Below are positions 1 through 56,882 of a stretch of 64,000 nt of DNA, one piece after another. The stretch comes from an uncultured Candidatus Saccharibacteria bacterium (GTDB lineage: Bacteria > Patescibacteriota > Minisyncoccia > Minisyncoccales > RBG-13-42-11). The position numbers and the translations under genes were made by a program. The stretch's first letter is position 1. Each line of letters begins with the position of its first letter. The notes below the pieces were generated by a model. The model was given only the letters and a program-made list of their open reading frames with translations. It did no database searches and was not told the DNA's origin. The stretch covers positions 34,468-98,467 of the forward strand of contig CAYZSL010000001.1 of assembly GCA_964481125.1 (NCBI GenBank), written 5' to 3'.

Positions 1-698
1 ACCTTTTGAAATTTAGCTTTAAAATATTAAAGACTTTCGGATTCAAAAATTATGACATTTATCTTTCCACCAGGCCGGAAAAATATGCGGGAAACTTGAA
101 AGACTGGGAAAAAGCAACCAATGTTTTAAAATATGCTCTTCAGAAATTAAAGCTGAAATGGCAGGTAGACCAAGGAGGAGGAGTGTTTTACGGACCGAAA
201 ATAGATATAAAAATTAAAGATTCTCTGGGCAGGCCTTGGCAATGCACGACAGTCCAGATTGACTTCAATTTGACCGAACGTTTCGATATAGCGTATATCA
301 ACGAAAAAGGAAAGAAGCAAAAACCTTTCATGATTCATCGGGCTATCCTGGGTTCGCTTGAAAGGTTTATCGGAGTTTTGCTTGAACATTATGCTGGCTC
401 TATGCCTTTATGGCTATCCCCTGAACAAATCTGGGTTATTCCTTTGGGAGCAAAACATGAAAAATACGCAAAAATAATTACCGAAACCTTGCGAGCTGCC
501 GGTTTCAGAACACAACTCAAAAACGAAAATGAAACCGTTTCAAAGAAAATCCGCGGAGGAGAAATGCAAAAAATCCCCTATCTTTTGGTAGTCGGCGATA
601 AAGAAATGAAAGCTAAATCAATCAGGGTAAGAGAAAGACAAAAAGGAGATATCGGTGAAATAAAAGTCAATAAATTTATTGAAAAAATTAAAAAATAA
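1..698 (+). CDS. thrS: threonyl-tRNA synthetase, C-terminal portion (5' end outside window)
   Basis: Frame open to window edge; end of class II catalytic core (MIHRAILGSLERFIGVLLEHYAG) followed by anticodon-binding domain (IPYLLVVGDKE), as in ThrRS. Confidence 0.9.
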   Translation, partial: LLKFSFKILKTFGFKNYDIYLSTRPEKYAGNLKDWEKATNVLKYALQKLKLKWQVDQGGGVFYGPKIDIKIKDSLGRPWQCTTVQIDFNLTERFDIAYINEKGKKQKPFMIHRAILGSLERFIGVLLEHYAGSMPLWLSPEQIWVIPLGAKHEKYAKIITETLRAAGFRTQLKNENETVSKKIRGGEMQKIPYLLVVGDKEMKAKSIRVRERQKGDIGEIKVNKFIEKIKK

Positions 699-705
699 TA
701 ACCTT

Positions 706-2298
706 ATGTCGGAATTATCCCAACAAACGCAAAAGCTAATTCAAAAATACCAGACCTGGCAAGATTCTTTACAGCCTAAGCCGGAAATACCAACCATCCA
801 CGTTGACGAAGTTGCTTCAGCTGTCGCTGCTTTCTATGAAAAAATAAGAGGCGTCGTAGACTGGCGGGAAGAACATTTAATGAGAAGAGCAGCCATTGAA
901 AGAATGTTAAAAAGAAGATTGCTTTTGACTAAAGACAGCCAGGAGGTTGCTGAACCTTTAACACTGGAACTGATTAGAAGCGGACATTTCCCCAATGACA
1001 GAATACCGGAAACAGTGATCAGCCAAGTAAAGAAAATAATAGAAAAGTACGTCTTTATCCTGGAAAACGCTCCTCCGGCTCCAGCTGAAAAAATGAAAGC
1101 CCAGCTTTACGACTGGCTTTTATCGATTGCCGCCTGCGAAATAGAAGAAGAGCTTATTCCGCCTCACCGGGAAAGGGCGCTGATTAATTATATGACAGAA
1201 GCAATGACAGAAAAGATACAATTGAACAACGGTATTTCTGAGGAACAAAAAAACATCTATATCCATATCGCCGTCCAAAGAGCTCTTTTCAAGCTGGATA
1301 ATCCGATAATCATCTACAATCTTTTAAAAAGACAGTATCCCCAGTGGCACGATCTGAAAAACGGAGACTCCCCGCTTCCGGAAATATCCCAAAACATTTA
1401 TTCAAACTGGAAAACTTTTGAAAAATATCTAAAACAACGCCTTTCGGAAAAATTCTATAAAGTTTGCGAAAGATACGATACTGCTTATTTGGTTTTGGGA
1501 GACGTAATTTCCGAAGAGCCGATGACCGCCCAGGAAAAGCTGTCTATGCCAGAAGAGATGGAAAACAAAATATCAGCTGCTTACGAAAAAAGGTTAAAAA
1601 CCCTGAAAAAGAGAATCAACCGGGCAGCTATTTACGCCACTATTTCCATATTCGTCACCAAAATACTTTTGGCCTTGGCGATCGAGGTGCCTTTTGACAG
1701 ATATGTAACCGGACAATTCAGCTACCAGGCATTGGCTTTCAATATTCTGATCCCCGCCCTTTTAATGCTATTTCTAATCTCGACCATCAGGCCTCCTAAA
1801 AAGGAAAATCTGCAGCAGGTTATTATGGAAGTGATAAAAATAGCCTATGTCACAGAGAGCAAAGATGTATACACGATAAAAATCCTAAGAAAAAGAGGCT
1901 GGTTGATGAATGCCTTTATCACCAGTTTTTATTCTTTCGGTTTTCTGGCCTCTTTCGGATTAATAATCTTGGGCTTGTACAAATTGGACTTTGGCATACT
2001 TTCCATGATAATCTTCCTTGTCTTCATTTCCTTGATTTCTTTTGCCGGAACAAAACTCAGGGAAAGGTCACGCGAACTGGAAATAATGGAAAGAAAAGAA
2101 TCATTCCTAATGTTTATCATTGATCTTTTCTCTCTGCCGATCATCCGCATGGGCAAATGGCTTTCAGGCCAATGGGCAAAATACAACGTAATTGTCGTCT
2201 TTTTCAACTTTCTCATCGACATGCCACTGCAAACCTTTATTGAATTCCTGGAAAAATGGCGCGAATTCCTTAAAGAAAAGAAGGAAGAAATACACTAA
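706..2298 (+). CDS. hypothetical membrane protein (soluble ~330-aa N-terminal part, 4-6 C-terminal TM helices)
   Basis: ATG at 706 just after thrS stop (track ORF 679..2298); hydrophobic helices from AIYATISIFVTKILLALAI onward; no family recognised. Confidence 0.7.
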   Translation: MSELSQQTQKLIQKYQTWQDSLQPKPEIPTIHVDEVASAVAAFYEKIRGVVDWREEHLMRRAAIERMLKRRLLLTKDSQEVAEPLTLELIRSGHFPNDRIPETVISQVKKIIEKYVFILENAPPAPAEKMKAQLYDWLLSIAACEIEEELIPPHRERALINYMTEAMTEKIQLNNGISEEQKNIYIHIAVQRALFKLDNPIIIYNLLKRQYPQWHDLKNGDSPLPEISQNIYSNWKTFEKYLKQRLSEKFYKVCERYDTAYLVLGDVISEEPMTAQEKLSMPEEMENKISAAYEKRLKTLKKRINRAAIYATISIFVTKILLALAIEVPFDRYVTGQFSYQALAFNILIPALLMLFLISTIRPPKKENLQQVIMEVIKIAYVTESKDVYTIKILRKRGWLMNAFITSFYSFGFLASFGLIILGLYKLDFGILSMIIFLVFISLISFAGTKLRERSRELEIMERKESFLMFIIDLFSLPIIRMGKWLSGQWAKYNVIVVFFNFLIDMPLQTFIEFLEKWREFLKEKKEEIH

Positions 2299-6073: not shown

Positions 6074-6772
6074 TTACTCAGTTTTTCTCCAATCTTCTTT
6101 AGCTGAAATATCTTTTCCTTTTTCTTCATTAACTATTTCCACTCCGGAACTAGTGCCGATAATATCAGCTCCAGCTTTAATCATCATTTCCAAATCAGCA
6201 AGAGTCCTAATAGAGCCTGCTGCTTTAACCAGTATGCCGGGAGCTGACTTCCTCATTATCCTGACGTGTTTTGCTTTTTCAGCTAGTTCTGAATGATCTA
6301 AAGGATCTTCAACCGTGGCTGTCTTAACACAAATTGCCCTAGCTTCCTTAACAATCTCTGAAGCTTTTTTAATTTCCTCGTCAGTCAAATAGCCAGAGCC
6401 GATTATCACTTTTGTCGGCAAAACAGCACAAATCTCTTTCAGATCAGACAGAACCTCGTCATATTTACCGTTCTTAAAATCATCTATCTTCATTACCACG
6501 TCAACCTCATCTGACCAATCTTCTTTAGCTCTCAAAGCCTTTTTCATCCTAATTTCATGAGAGCTGGCTCCTGTTGGCTCATCAATCAAAGTGGTAACCT
6601 TAACATCGCTGTTTAACAATGATTCTTTGGCTAATTTAGTATGTTCTGGATAAACACAAAATCCCCGGAAACCGTATTCCTTTGTTTCCTGGCAAACTTT
6701 CTTAATCTCTTGTTCTAAAGCTCCTTTTTTAAGAAATGTCTGGTCTATTAATTTAGCTGTGTTTGGCTGCAT
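6074..6772 (-). CDS. class I aldolase, deoxyribose-phosphate aldolase (DeoC)-like
   Basis: DeoC-like pattern: IDQTFLK, EYGFRGFCV, DVVMKI, lysines in CVKTATV and VKAAGSIRT, IIGTSSG. Confidence 0.7.
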   Translation of the reverse strand: MQPNTAKLIDQTFLKKGALEQEIKKVCQETKEYGFRGFCVYPEHTKLAKESLLNSDVKVTTLIDEPTGASSHEIRMKKALRAKEDWSDEVDVVMKIDDFKNGKYDEVLSDLKEICAVLPTKVIIGSGYLTDEEIKKASEIVKEARAICVKTATVEDPLDHSELAEKAKHVRIMRKSAPGILVKAAGSIRTLADLEMMIKAGADIIGTSSGVEIVNEEKGKDISAKEDWRKTE

Positions 6773-7547
6773 AATAAACGTTTTTTAATAATAAAGCGAC
6801 TGTTAATGGGCCCAAGCCTCCTGGCACTGGCGTTAAAAAACTAGCTTTGCCAGCTACGCTTTTTCTGTCCACATCCCCTACTACTTTTTTATTCTTTAAA
6901 ACAACAATGCCCCCGTCAATCAAAACAGCACCTTTTTTAATCATATCCCCTTTTATATAATTAGGAAATCCACAAGCTGAAATAACAATATCAGCTGATT
7001 TAATCTCAAGGCTTTTCCTGTCTTTAAGATAACTAATTTTAATTCTCTCTTTTATAAGAGAAGATTTTAGAACATTGCCGAAAAAATCAGAATTAACCAA
7101 AGCAATAATCTTTTTACCTTTAAGGTTTTTGGATGAATCTTTTAAAGCGACAAAAATGGCTGAAATCAAAGGAGAAGAAAAATGTGTTTTCTTCTGGAAA
7201 CCGTCAACGTCTTTGTGAAAATCTATCTTTTCTGTAATTTTCCTTGCTTTTAATTTAGAGGGTAAAGGCAATTGGACAATGATTCCTGCAACGTTTTCGT
7301 CTTTATTCAATACTTCAATCTGCCGCACAATCTCTTTTTCCTTAACTTTGCTGTTAAATTTAGAATAGAGAATTCCAATGCCCACTTCTTCTGCCGCCCT
7401 TTTTTTGTTCCTAATAAAAAGCTCTGAAGCAGGATCTTTTCCGACTGAAATTACCGCCAGCTTTAATTTCATTCTTTCTTTCCTGATTCTTTTTTTCAAA
7501 TCCGACAAGATTTTATCCGCTTTCTTTTTACCATCGAAAATCTTCAT
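6753..7547 (-). CDS. folD: bifunctional methylenetetrahydrofolate dehydrogenase/cyclohydrolase
   Basis: MKIFDGKKKA start, GIIVQLPLP, TPVPGGLGPLTVALLLKN. Confidence 0.9.
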   Translation of the reverse strand: MKIFDGKKKADKILSDLKKRIRKERMKLKLAVISVGKDPASELFIRNKKRAAEEVGIGILYSKFNSKVKEKEIVRQIEVLNKDENVAGIIVQLPLPSKLKARKITEKIDFHKDVDGFQKKTHFSSPLISAIFVALKDSSKNLKGKKIIALVNSDFFGNVLKSSLIKERIKISYLKDRKSLEIKSADIVISACGFPNYIKGDMIKKGAVLIDGGIVVLKNKKVVGDVDRKSVAGKASFLTPVPGGLGPLTVALLLKNVYYAAKHS

Positions 7548-8802
7548 AAATGGGAAACTTTTTGATTATTCTTTCCACCTCGCTCTTAATCAAATTTTTA
7601 ATTTTCCGGCTATCAATATTTTTAATAAGCTTGACGATAAGGCGAGCAATCTCCCTTGATTCTTTCTCTGTTAGTCCCCTGGTGGTGATTGCCGGTGTTC
7701 CCAACCTAATACCCGAAGGAAAATAAGGAGGTTTTTTATCAAAAGGAATGGCGCTTCTGTTAACGTAAATGCCAACCTTATCTAATTCGTCCTGAATTTC
7801 CTTCGAGCCAACGCTAAAAGGAGAAACGTCTATTACCATCAAATGATTATCTGTTCCCCCGCTGATTACCCTAATTCCCTGCTTCTGGAATTCATCAGCC
7901 ATGGCTTTGGCATTCAGAATAATCTGTTTTTGGTACTTCTTAAAAGAAGGCTTCATTGCCTCCAAAAAGCAAACAGCTTTAGCAGCAATAACATGTTCCA
8001 TCGGCCCACCCTGGATACCAGGAAAAACAGCTTTATCGATTTTTTGCGCTAAATTTAATTTGCTCTTAAGATTAAATCTGTCTTTAATTTTGCAAAGAAT
8101 CAGTCCTCCGCGAGGGCCCCTAAGAGTTTTATGAGTAGTCGTTGTCACGATATCGCACCAAGGGAAAGGATCAGGATGAAAACCGGCAATAACCAAGCCA
8201 GCAATATGAGCAATATCAGCCATTAAGTATGCTTTGACCTTGTCAGCAATCTTCCTGAATGCCTTAAAATCAAGAGTTCTTGAATATGAGGTTGTGCTGA
8301 CAATGATTAATTTCGGCTTGAACTTTAAAGCTATTTTTTCCACTTCTTTCAAATCAATCTTTTCCGTTTCCCGATTAACCCCGTAATGGGAAAAATTATA
8401 CAATTTTCCAGAAAAATTAACCGGCGAGCCGTGCGTCAAGTGGCCTCCGGCCGATAAATCAATACCCAATATTCTGTCTCCATGATTCAACAGAGCTAGA
8501 TAAACAGCTGAGTTTGCTTGAGAACCGGAATGAGGCTGGACATTGGCATGTTCTGCCCCAAACAACTTCTTAGCCCTTTCTATGGCTGTCTGTTCAACCT
8601 CATCAATGAATTCATTGCCGCTGTAATACCTTTTATATGGATAACCCTCAGAATATTTATTGCTCAAAGGCGTACCCATGACAGACAAGACCTCAGGACT
8701 GGCGTAATTTTCCGAGGGAATCAAAACAAGACCCTGTTTCTGGCGCAAAATCTCCTTTTCAACCAAGTTATATATTTTAGAATCTGATTTTGAGAGTTTC
8801 AT
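7528..8802 (-). CDS. glyA: serine hydroxymethyltransferase
   Basis: LIPSENYASPEV, SEGYPYKRYY, PLP-lysine motif TTTTHKTLRGPRGG. Confidence 0.95.
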   Translation of the reverse strand: MKLSKSDSKIYNLVEKEILRQKQGLVLIPSENYASPEVLSVMGTPLSNKYSEGYPYKRYYSGNEFIDEVEQTAIERAKKLFGAEHANVQPHSGSQANSAVYLALLNHGDRILGIDLSAGGHLTHGSPVNFSGKLYNFSHYGVNRETEKIDLKEVEKIALKFKPKLIIVSTTSYSRTLDFKAFRKIADKVKAYLMADIAHIAGLVIAGFHPDPFPWCDIVTTTTHKTLRGPRGGLILCKIKDRFNLKSKLNLAQKIDKAVFPGIQGGPMEHVIAAKAVCFLEAMKPSFKKYQKQIILNAKAMADEFQKQGIRVISGGTDNHLMVIDVSPFSVGSKEIQDELDKVGIYVNRSAIPFDKKPPYFPSGIRLGTPAITTRGLTEKESREIARLIVKLIKNIDSRKIKNLIKSEVERIIKKFPIYEDFRW

Positions 8803-8806
8803 ATTT

Positions 8807-9442
8807 CTATTTTCTAAAATTCCATTCCTGAAAAAACCTTTTGATAAACGACTTCATGTATTCTTTTCTTTCTTCCGCCATCTTTTTACCCTTTTTGGTG
8901 AAAAATTTCTTTTTTATGTCCCAATCTAAAATAGTATGCATAGCGCTGTAGTTTCCGCCATGAGATAGCCCAGGTTTCCGAGGGATATTGGGATTCCAGA
9001 TTTTTTTACCGACACCTCCAGAATATGTAAACTGTCTTGCTAGGCCTAATGCTCCTACACCCTCTATTTTGTCAGCATCATGGAAAATAAGGACTTCTGT
9101 CGGCAACTTCTTCGAAGAAAGATTCCTCTTTTCATGTAATTCAATAATTTTTTTTATTAAGTTAAACTTTTCCTTTGGAACCCTTGCTTTCTTTAATAAT
9201 GAATTTGCTAGACCCGCAGACAAATGACCATGAAGACCTTTCCTGTTTTTTAATTTTAGTTGTCCTATATCATGAAGCCAGCTGGCGGCAAAAAGTGCTT
9301 CCAAATCGACTTCTCGGTAGTTCTTGGTAAATATCAAACAATATTTAAAAACTCTCTCAGAGTGATCCGAGCCATGGGCTGGATCAAGGTTTTTCAATAA
9401 TGGACTGACGATTTTAATTAATTTTTTCTGCCAGGCTTTCAT
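8807..9442 (-). CDS. HD-domain phosphohydrolase
   Basis: HGSDHSERV ... WLHDIG ... FHDADK metal-binding H/HD pattern. Confidence 0.75.
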   Translation of the reverse strand: MKAWQKKLIKIVSPLLKNLDPAHGSDHSERVFKYCLIFTKNYREVDLEALFAASWLHDIGQLKLKNRKGLHGHLSAGLANSLLKKARVPKEKFNLIKKIIELHEKRNLSSKKLPTEVLIFHDADKIEGVGALGLARQFTYSGGVGKKIWNPNIPRKPGLSHGGNYSAMHTILDWDIKKKFFTKKGKKMAEERKEYMKSFIKRFFQEWNFRK

Positions 9443-11049
9443 TTCCTCAATTTTTTAAGATTTTTCTCGAATTCCCTGGTTAACTCTTTTTTCATATTCT
9501 GATGGAATTTCTCGTTATATCCCTTAACAAGAGATAAAATCATAGGGCAACTTTTTTCTTCCGGACAAAAACCAACCAAACCACATTTGGGAACTATAAG
9601 TTTATTTAACCAGGCTAAACCTTTTCTCTCTAAAGCTTTTTTAATTATAGCTACTTCTTTAATAGTGTTTCTCCTCATCTCCTCTTCTGCTGTCTGGCAA
9701 AGCCTCAAAGGATAATAACCGGTAAGCAGATTATATAAATCGTATTCTTGCAAAATATCAATTTTTACTGCACGCGAAACGACAAAAATAGCGTCTTTTG
9801 GCTTAATTCCCAGTTTGACCATCTTTCGATAGGCTTCAAATGAATTCAAACCAACCGACAAATACTCTAAAAGCAGTTCTTTTTGTTTTTTTATTGAAGG
9901 CGGGATAGAAAACACCTCTTCTATTTGTCTAACGATGGCGTCATCAACCTTGCCTTCCCTAATCCGTTTTCTAAATTTTAGAAATAATTTTTCTGCCCTT
10001 TCTATACAATAATATATTGATTCTATAATCTGATGACAGGTTCTATGCCTCTTTTTTTCGCCCCAAATCCGCCAAGGAATCGAGGACAAAATCTTTAACC
10101 TCAATGATAGATTGTAGTCTCTAAAAATTTCTTGGTATTTTTCCAGCAGTTTAAACCAATTTTGTTTAATTTTGGTTAATGAGGAAAAAGTGGCTTTTTT
10201 CTCTTTCTCTAATCCTGAGATTATTTTTTCCAATTCTGAAACAGTTAAAATATCCATTGAGACAAGTTCAGAATCATTCTTTAAGTTTTTTCTTTTTCTC
10301 AATTCCCTGACTAAGTTCGTTTTGTTGGGATTTTTAAAAATATTTGGATAAGGATAAAAGTTTCGAGGAGCAGCGGCCCTCATGTGATAAAGCAAATCAA
10401 TACCCAATTTTTTAGCTTCTTTCTCTATATGCTTTAAAAGCAATCCCACCTCTTCGGGCATCCATTCTTTTTCCTTTTGATATTCCCTTTTCAGCCCCAC
10501 TATTGTTTCAATCGGCAACTGGATGATACCAGTGCCATAAATACCGTACTGCAATATCTTACTGGCCTCATCTTTCTGAATTTTTTTGTCTAAAAGAGAA
10601 TTAGAAAAACTAATTATTCTTTCTGAGGCTTCTTGGTAAATTTTCCTTGATTTTTTGTTTGCATATATTTTCTTCGGAAAAACAATATCTTTCTCGGTGG
10701 TTCCTGTTCTTCTTCCGGAAGAAACCAAGGATGAAGAAAAATAGATTCCGGTTAACGTAGAATCTAAAAATTTGCTTCCTTCATAGGTTAAACAAATAGA
10801 AGGCGTAGTGGCGATTGAAGCATGTCCCCTTAGGGAAGATTTCTGTAAAATCATTTTAATTCTCTCTGAAACACTGTTCCCCCCTTTTTCTATCTCTTCA
10901 AATAATTTCTTGATTGACCTGCCTTTAAATGTCAATAAAGCAGAAAGGGCAACAATTTCCTGCGTATTTAAAACCCCGCTTCTATCTTTTAGGAACGGGG
11001 TGATGCCTAAAAATTTTATTTTCAAATCACTGGTTAAAATGGGTTTCAT
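9439..11049 (-). CDS. double-length ThyX-like (flavin-dependent thymidylate synthase family) protein, divergent
   Basis: N-half resembles ThyX start (SSLRGHASIATTPSICLTYEGSKF vs GH-S-EH...F-EG-SR); C-half has RHRTCHQIIESIYY in place of RHRxxSxxxxSxRY, then PLRLCQTAEEEMRR like the LRxxxxAQxEIR helix; sits between dcd and glyA/folD. Confidence 0.55.
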   Translation of the reverse strand: MKPILTSDLKIKFLGITPFLKDRSGVLNTQEIVALSALLTFKGRSIKKLFEEIEKGGNSVSERIKMILQKSSLRGHASIATTPSICLTYEGSKFLDSTLTGIYFSSSLVSSGRRTGTTEKDIVFPKKIYANKKSRKIYQEASERIISFSNSLLDKKIQKDEASKILQYGIYGTGIIQLPIETIVGLKREYQKEKEWMPEEVGLLLKHIEKEAKKLGIDLLYHMRAAAPRNFYPYPNIFKNPNKTNLVRELRKRKNLKNDSELVSMDILTVSELEKIISGLEKEKKATFSSLTKIKQNWFKLLEKYQEIFRDYNLSLRLKILSSIPWRIWGEKKRHRTCHQIIESIYYCIERAEKLFLKFRKRIREGKVDDAIVRQIEEVFSIPPSIKKQKELLLEYLSVGLNSFEAYRKMVKLGIKPKDAIFVVSRAVKIDILQEYDLYNLLTGYYPLRLCQTAEEEMRRNTIKEVAIIKKALERKGLAWLNKLIVPKCGLVGFCPEEKSCPMILSLVKGYNEKFHQNMKKELTREFEKNLKKLRK

Positions 11050-11618
11050 TTTGAGTTTTCCTCATTTATTTTGCTAGCAGCAGTATCTTGATTAGCGTAC
11101 TTGTGATCTTTTTGTTTCAAATAAGAAATTTCAGCTGGAGAAGAAAGAGTTTCAAAAGTCATCGCACAAATCCTCATTCCGGCATAAAGGATAATCGGCA
11201 TAATCCCCAAATTTCCTAATTCCATCACTGCTTTGCCCTTCCAGCCCGGATCAAATCTGGCAGCAGTTGAATGAACCACCAGTCCCAATCTTCCTAAAGA
11301 GCTCCTGCCGTCTAATCTGCCCATGATATCTTCTGGCAGAATAATTTCTTCCTTGGTTGTAGCAATAATGAACTGTTTCGGCTGGACAATAAAAGGACTA
11401 TCATCTTCAATAATAATTTCTTCCATAATTTCTTCAAAGTTCATTTTTCTTTTTAAATCTAAATAAGGATATTGGGTCGGCCTGAAGGTTTTGAAATGAT
11501 TTCCAAGATGTAAATCTAAAGAACAGGGGCCAAGTTGTTCAGAGAAATCAGGTTCAGGAATAATCAAAATCTTCCTTTCTTCAATATATTTTTTGATGTC
11601 GCGATCAGAAAGAATCAT
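11046..11618 (-). CDS. dcd: dCTP deaminase (dUTPase superfamily)
   Basis: MILSDRDI start, CSLDLHLG, GRLDGRSSLGRLGL. Confidence 0.9.
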   Translation of the reverse strand: MILSDRDIKKYIEERKILIIPEPDFSEQLGPCSLDLHLGNHFKTFRPTQYPYLDLKRKMNFEEIMEEIIIEDDSPFIVQPKQFIIATTKEEIILPEDIMGRLDGRSSLGRLGLVVHSTAARFDPGWKGKAVMELGNLGIMPIILYAGMRICAMTFETLSSPAEISYLKQKDHKYANQDTAASKINEENSK

Positions 11619-20186: not shown

Positions 20187-20467
20187 TTCAAAATTGATTT
20201 TACTTTTAAATAATCTTCTTTTCTGTCGGGAAACGATTCTATCAATTTCTTGCCGCTCCCCTTTCCTTTTGATTCATCTTTCCTTAATACGTTTTCAACT
20301 TTGATTGAATGGCTGGTTGGCTCAATGCCGGAAATATTCACTTCTTTCAGTTTTTCAAAATAATCCAAAATCGAAGAAAGCTCTTTCTGATATTTTTCAA
20401 TTTCTTGATCAGTTAATCCCAATCTGGCAAGTTTAGCTATATGTTGTACTTCTTCTTTAGAAATCAT
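20183..20467 (-). CDS. gatC: Asp/Glu-tRNA amidotransferase subunit C
   Basis: 94 aa, VQHIAKLARLGLTDQE start typical of GatC, immediately upstream of gatA. Confidence 0.9.
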   Translation of the reverse strand: MISKEEVQHIAKLARLGLTDQEIEKYQKELSSILDYFEKLKEVNISGIEPTSHSIKVENVLRKDESKGKGSGKKLIESFPDRKEDYLKVKSILK

Positions 20468-21516
20468 CTTGGCGGTTCCAAATATTCTGTTTCAACTAAT
20501 ACCTCGTGGAGCTGATCAAGGTTTTCCAACACCATGCCTGCTCCCCTAACCACGGCTGTTGTCGGGTCTTCAATAATCTTGGTCGGAATCTTGGTTTCTT
20601 TTTGAATTAGAGTAGCCAACCCCCTCAAAAGAGAGCCGCCCCCTGCCATCTGAATCCCTGAAACCATAATATCAGCCAGTAATTCTGGCGGAGTTTCCTC
20701 GACAGCTGTTTTCGTTTCGGCAATTATCTGTTTTATTGATTTTTCCAAAGCTTTTCTGATATCTTCGTCAGAAACTAAAATTTCTTCGGGCAATCCCGTT
20801 ACCAAATTCCTTCCCCTCATTGGCAACTGCTTTTTCTCTTTTAAAGGATAGGCTGAACCTATTATTATTTTAAGCATTTCTGCTGTTCTTTCGCCAATCA
20901 GCAGCTTGTATTCATCTTGGGCGAATTGAATAATGTCCTGGTTTAATCTGTCTCCGGCAATCCGGAGAGTTTTTGACAAAACTATTCCTCCTAGAGAAAT
21001 GACGGCAATATCCGTTGTTCCTCCGCCGATATCAACTATAAAGTTTCCTCCTGCTTCCTGAATAGGTAAACGAGCGCCCAAAGCTGCAGCCATGGGTTCC
21101 TCAATAATGAAAACTTCCCTGGCGCCTGCGTTTTTAGCTGCGTCAGAAACAGCTTTTTTCTCAACTTCTGTTACTCCGCAAGGAATGCCGATAATCACCC
21201 TGGGCCTCGGATTCAAAAGAAACTTTTTCTGGTGCGCCTTGTCAATAAAATACTTCAGCATCTGCTCTGTCACTTCAAAATTAGAAACAACCCCGGAAAC
21301 CAAGGGCCTGGTAGCTACAATGTGGGCTGGCGTACGGCCTACCATTTTCTTTGCCTCATCTCCAATAGCCAAAACCTGGCCTGTTTTCTGATTTATGGCA
21401 ACAACCGAAGGCTCAGTAATAATGATTCCCCTGCCCCGAACGTAAACCCGGGAATTAGCTGTTCCTAAATCAATAGCAATATCTTCTGAAAGTATTCTCC
21501 AAAGCTTATTAAACAT
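20464..21516 (-). CDS. mreB: actin-like rod-shape protein MreB (paralog 1)
   Basis: IAIDLGTANSRVYV, PSVVAI, GRTPAHIVATRPL, DIGGGTTDIAVISLGG. Confidence 0.92.
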   Translation of the reverse strand: MFNKLWRILSEDIAIDLGTANSRVYVRGRGIIITEPSVVAINQKTGQVLAIGDEAKKMVGRTPAHIVATRPLVSGVVSNFEVTEQMLKYFIDKAHQKKFLLNPRPRVIIGIPCGVTEVEKKAVSDAAKNAGAREVFIIEEPMAAALGARLPIQEAGGNFIVDIGGGTTDIAVISLGGIVLSKTLRIAGDRLNQDIIQFAQDEYKLLIGERTAEMLKIIIGSAYPLKEKKQLPMRGRNLVTGLPEEILVSDEDIRKALEKSIKQIIAETKTAVEETPPELLADIMVSGIQMAGGGSLLRGLATLIQKETKIPTKIIEDPTTAVVRGAGMVLENLDQLHEVLVETEYLEPPR

Positions 21517-25251: not shown

Positions 25252-26253
25252 TTATCTTTTATTCATTATGCTCTTTTTGTAAACATCAAGGTTTTCCAAA
25301 ACTACGCCCGTTCCTTTGGCCACGCAAAGCAAAGGGTCTTCAGCCAGGAAGCAAGGAACGCCTGTCTCCCGGGAAATCATTTCTGTAATGTTTCTTAATA
25401 ATGCGCCGCCACCAGAAACAATCATGCCCTTGTCAATTATGTCAGCCGATAATTCAGGCGGCGTATCCCTTAATACAGTTTTAATAACATGGATAATATC
25501 TCCCAAAATTTCAGAGATCGCTTCGGCAATTTCGTTGGAAGAAATTTTAACTGTTCGAGGCAAACCGGAAACCAAATCCCTGCCGCGAATTTCTATAAAT
25601 CTTGGCTCTTTTTCCGGTATGGCTGTACCTATTTTCATTTTAACCTCCTCTGCTGTCTGTTCTCCGATAGCTAAATTGTATTTTTTCTTTATATAATCTG
25701 AAATGGCAAAATCCATTTTGTCTCCGCCAATCCTGACAGAATTACAAGTAACTATTCCCCCCAAAGATATAACAGCTATTTCAGAAGTCCCGCCCCCAAT
25801 ATCAACAATCATATTACCAGAACAGGAATTAATCGGAATGCCAGCGCCAATGGCTGCTAAAATCGGCTCTTTTGCCAAATATGCCTGTTTGGCACCCGCA
25901 TTCAAAGCAGCCTCAATCACTGCTCTTTTCTCGGTTGAGGTAATGCCAGCTGGTACGCCTATCATTAATTCAGGTTTTAAGAAACGCCAAAAACCGCATA
26001 CTTTGTCAATAAAATGCCTTAGCATTGCCTGAGTCACCCTGAAATCAGCAATCACTCCGTCTTTTAAAGGACGATAAACCCTAATTGTGTCTGGAGTACG
26101 ACCGATCATTTCTTTTGCTTCTTCCCCGATTGCCAGAATTCTGTTCTCTTCTAAGGCGACAGCAACAACTGAAGGCTCTTGCAAAACCACTCCTTTGCCG
26201 GGAAGAAAAACCAAAGAATTGGCAGTACCCAAATCTATACCTATTTTTCTCAT
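25252..26253 (-). CDS. mreB: actin-like MreB (paralog 2)
   Basis: IGIDLGTANSLVFL, GRTPDTIRVYRPL, DIGGGTSEIAVISLGG. Confidence 0.9.
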   Translation of the reverse strand: MRKIGIDLGTANSLVFLPGKGVVLQEPSVVAVALEENRILAIGEEAKEMIGRTPDTIRVYRPLKDGVIADFRVTQAMLRHFIDKVCGFWRFLKPELMIGVPAGITSTEKRAVIEAALNAGAKQAYLAKEPILAAIGAGIPINSCSGNMIVDIGGGTSEIAVISLGGIVTCNSVRIGGDKMDFAISDYIKKKYNLAIGEQTAEEVKMKIGTAIPEKEPRFIEIRGRDLVSGLPRTVKISSNEIAEAISEILGDIIHVIKTVLRDTPPELSADIIDKGMIVSGGGALLRNITEMISRETGVPCFLAEDPLLCVAKGTGVVLENLDVYKKSIMNKR

Positions 26254-27569: not shown

Positions 27570-28874
27570 ATGACCAAAAAGACAAAAACAATACTGTTTT
27601 TAACCTGTTTGCTTACGTTCATTCTATTGGCGCCCTCAATAGTCCTGTACTCCCAAGGATACAGAATTGATTTTAATCCTCCGGCTGGCGGAAAAATGAT
27701 CACCCAAACCGGAGGCCTTTTTTTCAAAGTCACGCCCAAACAAACAGATATTTATATTGACGGCAAACTTAAAAAAAGAACTGATTTTCTATTCGGTTCT
27801 GTTTTAATTGAAAACCTCGTTCCCGGAAAGTACAAAGTAGAAATCAAGAAAGCAACCAGCCAGGAAGAATACTATTCCTGGGAGAAAAACCTGGAAATAC
27901 GGGAAAAACAGGTAACTGAAGCTAAAAACGTTGTCCTTTTCCCCAAAAACGTTAATTTCAGCGTTTTATCAACCAATGTAGAACAGCTTTGGCTTTCTCC
28001 AGACCAAAAGAAACTGATATTAAAAGAAAACGAAAAAGCCAGCTGGTCCTTAAAGCTTTACGACCCGGAAAAGAATATAAAGAGCCATTTAATAAGCGAC
28101 GAGGATTTCTTCACGAAAGAACCCCAATTAATCAATCTGGAATTCTCGGGAGACTCAAGAAGTATTAATCTGAAAGTCAGCATAAAAGAAGCAATACAAT
28201 CTTTCTCTCTGCAACTTGACCAAGCAAAACCGACTTTAAATAAAAAAACAGCAGCCACAACGACAACTGGAAACGCTGCTATTTCGCAACAAGCAGGTAA
28301 TGACCTCTATTATTTGGACAGTTTCGGCTATCTTTTCAGGAATAAAGAAAAGCTGGCAGAAACTCCCTTTCAAACAAAACAAGAAACAGAATATGCTTTA
28401 GATATTTTCAACGGCAACATATTCTTAAAAGAAAACGACAAACTGTATAAATTCAATTATAATCTGAAAACATTTGAACATTTCTTTGACGGAATCAATG
28501 TCTTAAAGCTTTCTCCAGACAACAAGAAACTGCTTTACGCTTCAAACAATGAAATGTGGATTCTTTTCCTGGAAGACAAAATCGACCAGCCACAGAAAAA
28601 ATCAGGAGAGAAAGTCTTTTTAATCCGCTTATCAGACAAAATCACAAGCATCTCCTGGATAAACGACAATTACCTGGCTTTTCTTGCCGGGAATACCGTT
28701 AAAATCACTGAAATAGACGACAGGGACAAAATCAATATTATAGACATATTTGAAACAAAAAATCTCCCCCAAGAAGGAAGCATTAATGAAATGTTCTGGA
28801 ACAGGTTTAATAATAAAATCTATCTCTTGGACGAAAACGGCTATTTATACAGCTCTAACGTCCTGCTCCCGTAA
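27570..28874 (+). CDS. membrane-anchored protein with PEGA-like beta domain and repeat-rich C-terminal part
   Basis: N-terminal TM (ILFLTCLLTFILLAPSIVL), DIYIDGK...LVPGKYKVEIKK resembles a PEGA domain; rest unassigned. Confidence 0.7.
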   Translation: MTKKTKTILFLTCLLTFILLAPSIVLYSQGYRIDFNPPAGGKMITQTGGLFFKVTPKQTDIYIDGKLKKRTDFLFGSVLIENLVPGKYKVEIKKATSQEEYYSWEKNLEIREKQVTEAKNVVLFPKNVNFSVLSTNVEQLWLSPDQKKLILKENEKASWSLKLYDPEKNIKSHLISDEDFFTKEPQLINLEFSGDSRSINLKVSIKEAIQSFSLQLDQAKPTLNKKTAATTTTGNAAISQQAGNDLYYLDSFGYLFRNKEKLAETPFQTKQETEYALDIFNGNIFLKENDKLYKFNYNLKTFEHFFDGINVLKLSPDNKKLLYASNNEMWILFLEDKIDQPQKKSGEKVFLIRLSDKITSISWINDNYLAFLAGNTVKITEIDDRDKINIIDIFETKNLPQEGSINEMFWNRFNNKIYLLDENGYLYSSNVLLP

Positions 28875-46632: not shown

Positions 46633-47412
46633 TTATTTCTTCTTGTGTTTTCTCCTTTGAATGATTAATTTGCTTGTCCACTTCTTTTTTCTTGTCCTGA
46701 CTCCCATTGCTATCTTGCCCCAAGGAGTTTTCGCATGCTTCATACCGATTGAAGATCTTCCCTCTCCTCCGCCGTGAGGATGATCGCAAGGATTCATGGT
46801 CGTGCCCCTGACTGTCGGCCTTATGCCCTTATGTCTCGTTCTTCCTGCCTTTCCCACCTTGATAAACTTGTGTTCGGGAAAAGAAACCTGTCCGATTGAA
46901 GCGCAACATTCAGCTAATATTTTTCTTGTCTCAGTGGAAGGAAAAATTAAATGGGTATACTTTCCTTCCTGAGCAACAACCCTGGCAGAAGTGCCCGCTC
47001 CCTTTACCAATTTTCCGCCCCTGCCAGGCTCCATTTCAATATTATATACCTGAGTTCCGACAGGAATGTTCTTTAATTTCATTCTGTTTCCTGTTTTTAT
47101 CTCTGCTTTTTCGGAACAAATCACGCTGTCTCCGACTTTCAACCCATGAGGGCAAATTCTATATCTTTTTTCTCCATTGTCATACTGCAAAAGACAGATA
47201 AAAGAAGTTCTGTAAGGATCATATTCAATGGCTAAAACTTTGGCCGGAGAATCCAACCTCTCCTGGCCGAAATCAACGATTCTGTAAAGCCGCTTTGCTC
47301 CGCCGCCCTTGTGCCTGACAGTAATCCTGCCCCGAGAATCGCGGCCCGCCCTTCTTTTCAAAGACAAAAGCAGGTTTTTCTCCGGTTGCTTTTTTGATAA
47401 TATCTTTTTCAT
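46633..47412 (-). CDS. rplB: 50S ribosomal protein L2
   Basis: [30 protein letters not shown]. Confidence 0.95.
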
Positions 47413-55902: not shown

Positions 55903-56220
55903 GTGATTACTATATCAGGAAACACAGTCAAGATTTTTTTCGTAGAAAAAGAAATAAGGCCAGAGGAAACTATGTGTATTGAGATGAGTATCCCTGAAAA
56001 AATAGATGGGGAAACAGGTGAGGTAAAAAAATGGAAAACGCTAGATGCGTCAGATGGTGTGTATGCTTCCCGTGTAACGATATTTCCCCATCACTACGAA
56101 GGAGCATTTGGCGCTTCTCTCTTTACCAAGTTTGGAATATTTTTGAATGCAGAAGCGGCAAGAAAAATGAGCAAGGCCCTTTTACTGTTGGCGAAGCATC
56201 AAGAGAAAGAAAAGAAATAA
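55903..56220 (+). CDS. orphan hypothetical protein A (~105 aa)
   Basis: GTG 55903 preceded by AAGGAAGG (55891-98); track ORF starts at TTG 55873 without an SD; no family recognised. Confidence 0.55.
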   Translation: MITISGNTVKIFFVEKEIRPEETMCIEMSIPEKIDGETGEVKKWKTLDASDGVYASRVTIFPHHYEGAFGASLFTKFGIFLNAEAARKMSKALLLLAKHQEKEKK

Positions 56221-56234
56221 AAAGGAGGACAAAA

Positions 56235-56882
56235 ATGTTTGAAGTAGAAGATAAAGTAATATACCGAGAAAGTGAAAAAATAGGAACAGTGGTGGGGTTT
56301 TCTGAAACTTACCAGAGTCGCAGTTGTAATTTTGGTCGTAGACCTGGGATCTATAAGAATAGATGTTGGGTATGGGTAAGGTTTGGAAATAGATCAAGCA
56401 ACAAACCAGAACTAATTTCTAGTACATTGTTAGACCCGGTAAATAAACGGGAGTATAACCAGCGTTTTAAAAAACCCAAACTCCCTAGTTGGAAAGAATG
56501 GGAAGAAAAAGAGAACTTCATTTGTGACCCTCCAGACACAAAATTCTGGGAGGGCGATATAGTACGACTGGCCAAAGGTGAAGATAAGAATAAAGTATTA
56601 ACAGTCTTAACAATCAAAAATATCACATCCGAAGATAAAGGAAATGATGAGCCATTAACTTATGTACTTGATAAGGTTTTTAAAGCCAACGTTGGTCACG
56701 GCTCATATGAAAGATTAGAAGACAAAATGGTTCTTGTTGAAAGGGGGAATATATGGAAATATTACCATTATAGACCTCTACGGTTTGTAGATTCTAAAGA
56801 AGCAGCAGAATTCTTTGAAATGACAAATCTTACAGGTAACAATAAGTCTATCATGATAATTCCAATAATCCCAATTGCCTAG
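56235..56882 (+). CDS. orphan hypothetical protein B (215 aa)
   Basis: ATG 56235 with AAGGAGG 6 nt upstream; two short beta-like modules (EVEDKVIYRESEKIGTVVGF, FWEGDIVRLAKGEDKNKVLTVLTI); hydrophobic tail IMIIPIIPIA; no family recognised. Confidence 0.65.
   Translation: MFEVEDKVIYRESEKIGTVVGFSETYQSRSCNFGRRPGIYKNRCWVWVRFGNRSSNKPELISSTLLDPVNKREYNQRFKKPKLPSWKEWEEKENFICDPPDTKFWEGDIVRLAKGEDKNKVLTVLTIKNITSEDKGNDEPLTYVLDKVFKANVGHGSYERLEDKMVLVERGNIWKYYHYRPLRFVDSKEAAEFFEMTNLTGNNKSIMIIPIIPIA

What the first reader, a model, noticed from the sequence alone, without database searches (positions are those of the whole stretch)
9439..11049. Double-length, motif-divergent ThyX-like protein
This 536-aa protein sits exactly where a thymidylate synthase is expected, between dcd and glyA/folD.
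- The C-terminal half carries RHRTCHQIIESIYY, where ThyX has RHRxxSxxxxSxRY. The first Ser is replaced by His and RY by YY.
- That half also has a PLRLCQTAEEEMRR helix resembling the ThyX LRxxxxAQxEIR segment.
- The N-terminal half resembles a degenerate second ThyX repeat (SSLRGHASIATTPSICLTYEGSKF).
- An extra C-terminal Cys cluster is present (PKCGLVGFCPEEKSCP).

Tandem-duplicated ThyX proteins exist in some bacteria, with a functional and a degenerate half fused. The substitution of the nucleotide-binding Ser and the added Cys motif raise the question of whether this protein is still a dUMP methylase.
Basis: partly seen in the sequence, partly recalled or inferred. Interest (0 to 1): 0.55.

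Follow-up and report, generated by a model that had tools for sequence, protein, structure and literature searches.

The report
Fused two-domain ThyX thymidylate synthase
This gene most likely encodes the cell's flavin-dependent thymidylate synthase, built as two fused ThyX domains that each keep a different part of the catalytic site; it is a widespread but uncharacterised form in tiny-genome bacteria and archaea, not a broken or exotic enzyme.

Summary
The 536-aa ORF (9439-11049, minus strand) and all quoted motifs are real. It is a tandem ThyX: the Pfam Thy1 match is significant, a canonical-ThyX HMM hits two separate domains, each half matches a canonical ThyX profile (HHalign 99.2% and 99.75%), and an AlphaFold model (pTM 0.81) matches only solved ThyX structures.

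The motif divergence follows a pattern. In 63 diverse two-domain relatives (CPR bacteria, DPANN and Nitrososphaerota archaea), the C-half keeps RHR and the Arg199-type arginine, which are the subunit A roles in published structures. The N-half keeps GH.S and Lys/Arg93, Ser111 and Arg113, which are the subunit B and C roles. Each half has lost most of what the other keeps. The N-half is as conserved as the C-half, so it is not a decayed remnant. I infer a dimer of fused chains with two composite active sites instead of four.

The Cys cluster is not an addition: 119 of 120 canonical-length relatives carry it.

Gene order supports thymidylate synthesis: dcd lies upstream in 37 of 44 loci and glyA downstream in 25 of 44.

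Duplicated ThyX was noted in 2009 as uncharacterised. Verdict: a new member of a known kind, of moderate interest.

The parts
9439..11049 (-). Whole gene: 536-aa two-domain ThyX-family protein
   Evidence: ORF listing. Pfam Thy1 PF02511 68.2 bits against a cutoff of 24.8, in 2 stretches. The AlphaFold model (pTM 0.81) matches only solved ThyX chains, Foldseek probability 1.00.
10360..11034 (-). N-terminal ThyX domain (aa 6-230). It has lost RHR and keeps the dUMP-loop and GH.S elements.
   Evidence: HHalign against a canonical ThyX profile: probability 99.2%, E 3e-19, aa 9-189 aligned to profile positions 1-169. HMMER domain 1 has i-E 4e-8. Mean pairwise identity is 73.6% in the close family.
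10816..10827 (-). GHAS (aa 75-78), equivalent to the canonical GH.S motif. Ser78 corresponds to Mtb Ser71, the subunit-B FAD contact.
   Evidence: Alignment. His76 is conserved in 57/63 and Ser78 in 52/63. The role of Ser71(B) comes from PMC6514825.
10771..10773 (-). Lys93, equivalent to Mtb Arg87, a subunit-C dUMP contact
   Evidence: Lys or Arg in 62/63. Role from PMC6514825.
10708..10737 (-). SSSLVSSGRR (aa 105-114): the substrate loop of the N-half. Ser111 and Arg113 correspond to Mtb Ser105 and Arg107 (Tm Ser88 and Arg90). Arg114 sits at the position of the Tyr lid.
   Evidence: HHalign places LTGIYFSSSLVSSGRR over the canonical LVRHRLMSPSQQSQRY. Ser111 and Arg113 are both 63/63 invariant.
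10276..10359 (-). Inter-domain linker (aa 231-258), which includes the conserved YPYPNIFK.P segment
   Evidence: This is the least conserved segment, with 59% identity over aa 231-315. The model shows no regular secondary structure over aa 227-245.
9520..10275 (-). C-terminal ThyX domain (aa 259-510). It keeps RHR, the Arg199-type arginine and the four-Cys site.
   Evidence: The best Pfam stretch is aa 324-471, matching profile positions 66-187. HHalign probability 99.75%, E 3e-27. HMMER domain 2 has i-E 5e-25.
10009..10050 (-). RHRTCHQIIESIYY (aa 334-347): the ThyX motif RHRx7S, with Tyr346 where canonical enzymes have Arg
   Evidence: Arg334 63/63, His335 61/63, Arg336 51/63, Ser344 54/63, Tyr346 59/63; position 347 is variable. 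RHR binds the FAD phosphates and ribityl and the flavin, and Arg95 also contacts dUMP.
9670..9711 (-). PLRLCQTAEEEMRR (aa 447-460). Arg449 corresponds to Mtb Arg199 (Tm Arg174), a subunit-A dUMP contact. Cys451 is the first of the four conserved Cys.
   Evidence: Aligned to the canonical RLC..AQWEIR segment. Arg449 and Cys451 are present in 61/63, the other two being gaps.
9544..9591 (-). PKCGLVGFCPEEKSCP (aa 487-502): Cys489, Cys495 and Cys501 of the four-Cys site
   Evidence: Each is present in 60-61 of 63. The same pattern occurs in 119 of 120 canonical-length relatives. No solved chain aligns over this segment.
11046..11618 (-). dcd (dCTP deaminase), immediately upstream with an ATGA stop/start overlap
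   Evidence: TIGR02274 187.8 bits against a cutoff of 92.8. Junction sequence. Upstream of the long thyX in 37 of 44 related loci.
8807..9442 (-). HD-domain phosphohydrolase, immediately downstream with an ATGA overlap
   Evidence: PF01966 34.6 bits. Junction sequence. Found in this position in only 1 of 44 related loci.
7528..8802 (-). glyA (serine hydroxymethyltransferase), which makes the CH2-THF that ThyX consumes
   Evidence: PF00464 526 bits. Downstream in 25 of 44 loci.
6753..7547 (-). folD (methylene-THF dehydrogenase/cyclohydrolase)
   Evidence: PF00763 and PF02882. Present in 10 of 44 loci.

Best explanation
The gene encodes the organism's flavin-dependent thymidylate synthase (ThyX/FDTS) in a fused form with two ThyX domains on one chain. 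In canonical ThyX, four identical subunits build four active sites. Each site uses RHR and Arg199 from subunit A, Ser71 and Arg190 from subunit B, and Arg87, Ser105, Arg107 and Tyr108 from subunit C (M. tuberculosis numbering). Here these roles are split. The C-terminal domain keeps only the A-role residues: Arg334-His335-Arg336 and Arg449. The N-terminal domain keeps the B-role and C-role residues: Ser78 of GHAS, and Lys93, Ser111 and Arg113. Two fused chains would therefore assemble into a pseudo-tetramer with two complete composite sites for FAD and dUMP, and two vestigial sites. The enzyme would take dUMP derived from the dCTP deaminase encoded just upstream and CH2-THF made by the GlyA encoded just downstream, and would produce dTMP and THF.

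Shown: the two ThyX domains, the complementary conservation pattern, and the conserved operon context. Inferred: the oligomeric state, which halves pair with each other, the presence of two active sites, and the actual catalytic activity.
For: Two domains: the Pfam Thy1 match has 2 stretches and 68.2 bits. A canonical-ThyX HMM gives two domain hits, i-E 4e-8 and 5e-25. HHalign gives 99.2% for the N-half and 99.75% for the C-half. The fold is ThyX only.

Complementary conservation in 63 diverse members:
- N-half: Ser111 63/63, Arg113 63/63, Lys/Arg93 62/63, His76 57/63, Ser78 52/63. At the three RHR positions the commonest residues are Gly, Ala and Pro; Arg appears in 1/63 at position 101 and 8/63 at position 103, and no member has all three.
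- C-half: Arg334 63/63, His335 61/63, Arg336 51/63, Arg449 61/63 with 2 gaps. The Arg107-equivalent position is Tyr in 59/63.
- Ser111, Arg113 and Arg334 are the only fully invariant residues in the two domain cores.

The subunit roles of these residues come from PMC6514825. The statement that each site lies at the interface of three monomers comes from PMC11940539.

The N-half is under constraint at least as strong as the C-half.

Context: ATGA overlaps with dcd and with the HD gene. dcd is upstream in 37 of 44 loci and glyA downstream in 25 of 44, and this holds at 42-49% identity where the other neighbours differ. No other ThyX or ThyA was found in the 64-kb window.
Against: Several canonical contacts are missing from both halves of this protein. 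The Arg172/Tm Arg147-type position is Ser163 in the N-half, with an adjacent invariant-in-family Lys164, and Ile421 in the C-half. The Arg190/Tm Arg165-type position is Glu181 and Tyr439. The Tyr-lid position in the N-half is Arg114.

The equivalog model TIGR02170 scores 29 bits against a cutoff of 87.9. The family profile finds no solved ThyX by sequence.

The C-half ES[IV]Y segment is conserved (53-59 of 63) even though, on this model, it faces a dead site. That is unexplained.

I could not obtain model coordinates, so the pairing of the halves is deduced from conservation and not observed. The rest of the genome could not be searched for thyA, thyX or tdk. No biochemistry exists for this clade.
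Confidence: 0.68

Rival explanations
1. Only the C-terminal domain is catalytic, and the N-terminal domain is a degenerate structural remnant that merely fills the place of a partner subunit.
For: RHR is lost from the N-half in all 63 members, and the Arg199-equivalent position there is Glu in most (28/63). The N-half scores lower against ThyX profiles than the C-half.
Against: The C-half by itself lacks the Arg107/Tm Arg90 equivalent (Tyr346 in 59/63), the Arg87 equivalent and the GH.S serine. The N-half supplies exactly these, and they are invariant or nearly so. The N-half is more conserved than the C-half in the close family, 73.6% vs 68.7%. A remnant should drift.
Confidence: 0.1
2. The protein is a neofunctionalised ThyX-like enzyme. 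It has the same fold and flavin chemistry but a different substrate or reductant. Examples would be another pyrimidine nucleotide, as in the ThyX homologue PolB that methylates UMP, or a flavin reduced through the four-Cys site instead of directly by NAD(P)H.
For: The score is below the thyX equivalog cutoff. Arg172-type and Arg190-type contacts are lost in both halves and the Tyr lid is replaced in the N-half. ES[IV]Y is conserved in the supposedly dead site. The four invariant Cys begin two residues after the catalytic Arg449. PolB structures (4p5a/4p5b) are among the PDB relatives of the canonical comparison protein. Their function as a UMP methylase is my own recollection.
Against: Tight and widely conserved linkage to dcd and glyA is what is expected for dTMP synthesis. 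No alternative thymidylate synthase was seen in the window. The Cys site is shared with 113 relatives that have a fully canonical motif, so it does not mark a new function of the long form.
Confidence: 0.17
3. The fused chains pair differently from the best explanation. In the dimer the C-halves pair with each other and the N-halves pair with each other. The catalytic sites would then be C-half/C-half sites using RHR, Arg449 and ES-x-Tyr346, with Tyr346 acting as the lid, and the N-half sites would serve another role.
For: The conservation of Glu343, Ser344 and Tyr346 in the C-half would be explained. Published structures place FAD of subunit A next to FAD of subunit B.
Against: This leaves the absolute invariance of the N-half Ser111 and Arg113, and of Lys/Arg93, without a rationale, because a site made only of N-halves has no RHR and no Arg199 equivalent.
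Confidence: 0.05

Closest known systems
Canonical homotetrameric ThyX/FDTS (Thermotoga maritima TM0449, M. tuberculosis, H. pylori and PBCV-1 enzymes; Pfam PF02511, TIGR02170)
   Same: The fold is the same: all top Foldseek hits are these enzymes. The RHRx7S motif, the Arg199-type arginine and the Ser-x-Arg substrate loop are all present. The operon logic with dcd and glyA fits. The expected chemistry is FAD-mediated methylene transfer from CH2-THF to dUMP.
   Different: Two domains are fused in one chain. The catalytic residues are split between the halves, so at most two composite sites can form instead of four. Arg172-type and Arg190-type residues are absent in both halves of this protein, and the Tyr lid is replaced in the N-half. 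The protein scores only 29 bits on the thyX equivalog model, and the family profile finds no solved ThyX by sequence.
Domain-duplicated ThyX noted in Chloroflexi and 'a few other species' (Valas & Bourne 2009, PMC3224940). From my memory only, the roughly 529-aa Chlamydia trachomatis ThyX that was assayed biochemically.
   Same: Two ThyX domains in one polypeptide. The 2009 paper states that the duplicated form was uncharacterised. C. trachomatis ThyX is an active enzyme in NADPH-oxidation assays (PMC3498832).
   Different: I could not retrieve a Chloroflexi or Chlamydia sequence. It is therefore untested whether they belong to the same clade or share the complementary half-site pattern. All named members of the clade found here are CPR, DPANN, Nitrososphaerota or Aenigmatarchaeota MAGs.
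Canonical-length four-Cys ThyX subclass of anaerobes (Anaerovibrio, Selenomonadales, Syntrophomonadaceae, Atribacteria, Diapherotrites)
   Same: These are the closest single-domain relatives of the C-half (E 1e-11 to 1e-16 over aa 355-515). They share the RLC cysteine and the PKC-x5-C-x5/6-C cluster.
   Different: They are single-domain, presumably homotetrameric, and have a fully canonical RHRx7SxRY motif (113 of 120).

Membership tests
ThyX / Thy1 (PF02511) flavin-dependent thymidylate synthase | Significant match to the Thy1 domain model above its gathering threshold | tested here: met
   68.2 bits against a cutoff of 24.8, E 1e-18, in 2 stretches.
ThyX / Thy1 (PF02511) flavin-dependent thymidylate synthase | ThyX fold | tested here: met
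   For the AlphaFold model (pTM 0.81), all top 50 Foldseek PDB hits are ThyX chains, probability 1.00, TM-score normalised to the target 0.50-0.65. The N-half modelled alone was too poor to test. Its fold assignment rests on HHalign at 99.2%.
ThyX / Thy1 (PF02511) flavin-dependent thymidylate synthase | ThyX motif RHRx7S | tested here: met
   R334-H335-R336-x7-S344 in the C-half. Arg334 is conserved in 63/63 and Ser344 in 54/63. The motif is absent from the N-half.
ThyX / Thy1 (PF02511) flavin-dependent thymidylate synthase | Full set of dUMP contacts: Mtb Arg87, Arg95, Ser105, Arg107, Tyr108 and Arg199 | tested here: inconclusive
   Neither half has the full set. Across the two halves five of the six are present (Lys93, Arg334, Ser111, Arg113, Arg449). 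The Tyr lid is Arg114 in the N-half.
ThyX / Thy1 (PF02511) flavin-dependent thymidylate synthase | Equivalog-level match to thyX (TIGR02170) | tested here: not met
   29 bits against a cutoff of 87.9. The protein is a divergent member, so I file it at family level and not as an equivalog.
ThyX / Thy1 (PF02511) flavin-dependent thymidylate synthase | Bound FAD and dUMP-to-dTMP activity dependent on NAD(P)H and CH2-THF | not testable with these tools
   This needs protein biochemistry or complementation of a thyA deletion.
ThyX / Thy1 (PF02511) flavin-dependent thymidylate synthase | It is the only thymidylate synthase in the genome (no thyA) | tested here: inconclusive
   There is no thyA or second thyX in the 64-kb window.
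Domain-duplicated (tandem) ThyX | Two ThyX domains in a single polypeptide, conserved as such among homologues | tested here: met
   Searches show the two domains. Hundreds of full-length homologues of 420-600 aa have the same architecture.
Domain-duplicated (tandem) ThyX | Same lineage as the Chloroflexi or Chlamydia duplicated ThyX | not tested
   No sequence from those taxa could be fetched. Literature note only.

The most novel reading that the evidence does not exclude
The CPR/DPANN two-domain ThyX is an obligately asymmetric enzyme. Only two of the four ancestral sites are catalytic. The other two, which retain the conserved C-half Glu-Ser-x-Tyr loop, have been repurposed, for example as a docking site for a reductant, NAD(P)H or a regulator. 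The invariant four-Cys site, which starts two residues after the catalytic Arg449, binds a metal or an Fe-S centre that takes part in flavin reduction in these anaerobes. That would make a mechanistically distinct ThyX subclass for which no structure exists.
Probability: 0.15. Interest if true: 0.65.

Novelty: new member of a known kind. Interest (0 to 1): 0.38.

Why it matters
[quoted passage not shown] Its active site is unusual because three subunits build it. A clade in which those subunit roles are permanently separated onto two fused domains is a natural heterodimer experiment. Each role (FAD and RHR donor, or dUMP-loop donor) could be mutated independently, which is hard to do in a homotetramer. 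It would also address half-of-sites behaviour. For genome annotation, many DPANN and other members of this clade are labelled 'hypothetical protein' and have no precomputed Pfam hit, so metabolic reconstructions for CPR and DPANN organisms may wrongly score thymidylate synthesis as missing. The widespread but structurally uncharacterised four-Cys site in ThyX enzymes of anaerobes is a separate open question.

Tried and rejected
1. One ThyX domain split by a large insertion. Rejected: the two halves hit overlapping parts of the canonical profile (positions 13-149 and 100-221).

2. A fusion or assembly artefact. Rejected: hundreds of homologues have the same length and architecture.

3. Direct self-similarity between the halves by BLASTP. 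Nothing significant. At profile level the N-half and C-half match at only 90.9% over 49 columns. The halves are anciently diverged.

4. Sequence search of the PDB with the protein and with the family profile. No ThyX hit. The link needed Pfam, HHalign and the fold search.

5. AlphaFold model of the N-half alone. pLDDT 43.5, unusable, so not fold-searched. The alignment had only 14 sequences, so this says nothing about whether the N-half can fold on its own.

7. The idea that the subgroup with RH[A/S/G]T (P0156 and relatives) might be the Chlamydia enzyme. Rejected: these are DPANN and assorted MAG proteins.

8. A ThyA-like hit at 46866-47198 (+). Rejected: it is a spurious antisense ORF inside rplB.

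9. Leduc 2004 (PNAS) and Griffin 2005 (JBC) could not be read. None of the papers listed by two searches combining ThyX with CPR and DPANN terms linked the two. A search combining ThyX with Fe-S, zinc and Cys-rich terms listed nothing on a metal-binding ThyX.

10. Model coordinates are not exposed, so distances between residues of the two halves and between the four Cys could not be measured.
Full report
**Observation.** The ORF at 9439-11049 on the minus strand encodes 536 aa. Upstream is a dCTP deaminase gene (TIGR02274, 188 bits). Downstream are an HD-domain phosphohydrolase, glyA and folD. The stop and start codons of dcd/thyX and of thyX/HD overlap as ATGA, and each start is preceded by GAGGA, so the three genes look translationally coupled. 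The window is a housekeeping stretch of a small-genome bacterium, with aminoacyl-tRNA synthetases, ribosomal proteins, gatA/gatB, rpoA and two mreB genes. The closest relatives of the protein come from Candidatus Nealsonbacteria and other Patescibacteria/CPR metagenome bins.

**What it is.** Pfam Thy1 matches at 68.2 bits in two stretches. An HMM that I built from 14 canonical-length ThyX proteins hits only this ORF in the whole window, as two domains. Profile positions 13-149 match aa ~29-170 (i-E 4e-8) and positions 100-221 match aa ~372-506 (i-E 5e-25). Profile-profile comparison gives 99.2% probability (E 3e-19) for the N-half and 99.75% (E 3e-27) for the C-half. An AlphaFold model built on 34 family members (mean pLDDT 78.8, pTM 0.81) shows two similar beta-alpha modules. 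In a Foldseek search of the PDB it retrieves only ThyX structures (T. thermophilus, H. pylori, T. maritima, M. tuberculosis, C. glutamicum, PBCV-1), each covering about half of the query. So the protein is a tandem ThyX. It is not a single domain with an insertion, and it is not an assembly artefact. It is nevertheless divergent. It scores 29 bits on the thyX equivalog model against a cutoff of 87.9. Neither the protein nor its family profile finds any solved ThyX by sequence.

**Distribution.** A profile search of 1.84 billion representative proteins found 478 relatives at E <= 1e-3:
- About 50 clusters are full-length, 500-600 aa.
- A second tier is 420-500 aa with the same architecture.
- Canonical 220-280 aa ThyX proteins match only the C-half.

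Named members are CPR bacteria (Nealson-, Wildermuth-, Portnoy-, Moran- and Wirthbacteria, and Minisyncoccales), DPANN archaea (Nanoarchaeota, Pacearchaeota, Aenigmatarchaeota) and Nitrososphaerota. Many are labelled 'hypothetical protein', and most DPANN members lack even a precomputed Pfam hit.

**The motif divergence is complementary.** Published structures describe each ThyX active site as built by three subunits (PMC11940539; PMC6514825). In M. tuberculosis numbering:
- Subunit A gives the RHR motif (95-97), which binds the FAD phosphates, ribityl and flavin, and it also gives Arg199.
- Subunit B gives Ser71 and Arg190, which contact FAD.
- Subunit C gives Arg87, Ser105, Arg107 and the Tyr108 lid, which contact dUMP.

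I checked this numbering against the HMMER alignment of a canonical relative to 3GWC. I then mapped these positions onto an alignment of 63 diverse two-domain proteins:

| Role (Mtb residue) | N-half | C-half |
|---|---|---|
| A: RHR (95-97) | lost; commonest residues Gly, Ala, Pro | Arg334 63/63, His335 61/63, Arg336 51/63 |
| A: Arg199 | lost (Glu commonest, 28/63) | Arg449 61/63, 2 gaps |
| B: Ser71 (GH.S) | His76 57/63, Ser78 52/63 | no GH.S motif |
| B: Arg190 | lost (Glu181) | lost (Tyr439) |
| C: Arg87 | Lys/Arg93 62/63 | not retained |
| C: Ser105 | Ser111 63/63 | Ser344 54/63 |
| C: Arg107 | Arg113 63/63 | Tyr346 59/63 |
| C: Tyr108 lid | Arg114 50/63 | variable |

Ser111, Arg113 and Arg334 are the only fully invariant residues in the two domain cores. 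The N-half is not decaying. Its mean pairwise identity is 73.6% against 68.7% for the C-half in the close family, and 26.8% against 30.9% in the diverse set.

The simplest reading is that the C-half has specialised as the subunit that donates RHR and holds FAD. The N-half has specialised as the subunit that donates the dUMP loop and the GH.S serine. A dimer of fused chains would then reproduce the ancestral tetramer with two complete composite sites and two vestigial ones. This is an inference from conservation and from published geometry. I could not obtain model coordinates to measure distances.

**The Cys cluster.** Cys451, in the RLC segment two residues after Arg449, together with Cys489, Cys495 and Cys501, are present in 60-61 of the 63 proteins. 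They are not an addition in the long form. The same pattern, R-x-C, then 32-38 residues, then C-x5-C-x5/6-C, occurs in 119 of the 120 closest canonical-length ThyX proteins. Of these, 113 also have a textbook RHRx7SxR[YHF] motif. They include enzymes of Anaerovibrio, Selenomonadales, Syntrophomonadaceae and Atribacteria. No solved ThyX aligns over this segment. Its role, whether structural metal site or redox centre, is open.

**Function.** Gene order supports thymidylate synthesis. Across 44 species-level loci, dcd is immediately upstream in 37 and glyA downstream in 25. These two links survive in the most divergent members (42-49% identity), where the ribosomal-gene neighbours are gone. Dcd supplies the deoxyuridine nucleotide, and GlyA regenerates the CH2-THF that ThyX converts to THF (PMC6514825). 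No thyA or second thyX lies in the window. The one weak ThyA-like hit is an antisense ORF inside rplB.

**Cautions.**
- This protein lacks the Arg172-type residue in both halves. The N-half has Ser163 followed by Lys164, although 28 of 63 relatives keep Arg at position 163. The C-half has Ile421.
- It lacks the Arg190-type residue in both halves.
- The N-half has Arg where the Tyr lid should be.
- The C-half Glu-Ser-x-Tyr segment is conserved although my model places it in a dead site.

These points leave room for an altered substrate, an altered reductant or a different pairing of the halves. I list those as rivals.

**Comparison with what is known.** The existence of domain-duplicated ThyX is not new. 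Valas & Bourne (2009, PMC3224940) noted it in most Chloroflexi and 'a few other species' and called it uncharacterised. From memory, the Chlamydia trachomatis enzyme is also about twice the normal length, and it is active in vitro (activity assays are mentioned in PMC3498832). I could not retrieve those sequences. Whether they share this clade or its complementary pattern is therefore untested. The listed results of my literature searches contained nothing that describes the CPR/DPANN clade or a metal-binding ThyX, and none of the ThyX papers I opened mentions a partition of active-site residues between two halves. No two-domain ThyX appeared among the top 50 Foldseek hits, all of which are single-domain chains.

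**Verdict.** The protein is most likely a working thymidylate synthase. It is a new member of a known but poorly characterised kind. Its value lies in the testable half-site arrangement and in better annotation of CPR and DPANN nucleotide metabolism.

Noticed in passing
window 8807-9442 (-): An HD-domain phosphohydrolase gene lies between the long thyX and glyA, with an ATGA start/stop overlap. It occupies this slot in only 1 of 44 related loci (L009). Five other loci carry a second ORF of the dcd/dut superfamily downstream of the long thyX, directly after it in two of them. It might be a non-orthologous replacement for the dUTP-to-dUMP step.
   Followed up: partly
proteins P0267 and P0428-P0546 (canonical-length ThyX); window 9544-9711 for the homologous residues: A four-Cys pattern (R-x-C, 32-38 residues, C-x5-C-x5/6-C) is nearly universal (119/120) in a large subclass of otherwise canonical ThyX enzymes from anaerobes. 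The first Cys sits two residues after the catalytic Arg. No solved ThyX structure aligns over it, and my one literature search on this listed nothing relevant.
   Followed up: partly
window 10009-10020 (aa 343-346, ESIY): The C-half Glu-Ser-[Ile/Val]-Tyr segment is conserved in 53-59 of 63 diverse members, even though the half-site model places it in a vestigial site. This is unexplained.
   Followed up: no
L045 4001-4711 (ENA contig NODE_18, 287,476 bp): A canonical four-Cys ThyX (P0250) sits among TnpB/OrfB_IS605, RuvC and SMC/AAA-like genes and many small unannotated ORFs on a 287-kb contig. This could be a very large phage or other mobile element carrying its own thyX.
   Followed up: no
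window 6074-6772 (-): A 232-aa ORF with only a sub-threshold DeoC/LacD aldolase match (E 5e-4, 20 bits against a cutoff of 23.8). It is conserved downstream of the thyX-glyA-folD block in 17 of 44 loci and overlaps both neighbouring ORFs.
   Followed up: no
window 20464-21516 (-) and 25252-26253 (-): Two MreB/Mbl paralogues lie within 5 kb of each other in a very small genome.
   Followed up: no
window 679-2298 (+), 27570-28874 (+), 56031-56882 (+): Three sizeable ORFs (539, 434 and 283 aa) have no Pfam match at E <= 1e-3. They lie on the plus strand in a window where nearly all genes are on the minus strand.
   Followed up: no
proteins P0294-P0411: Most DPANN and other MAG members of the two-domain ThyX clade are labelled 'hypothetical protein' and have no precomputed Pfam domain. 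Automated metabolic reconstructions probably miss thymidylate synthase in those genomes.
   Followed up: partly
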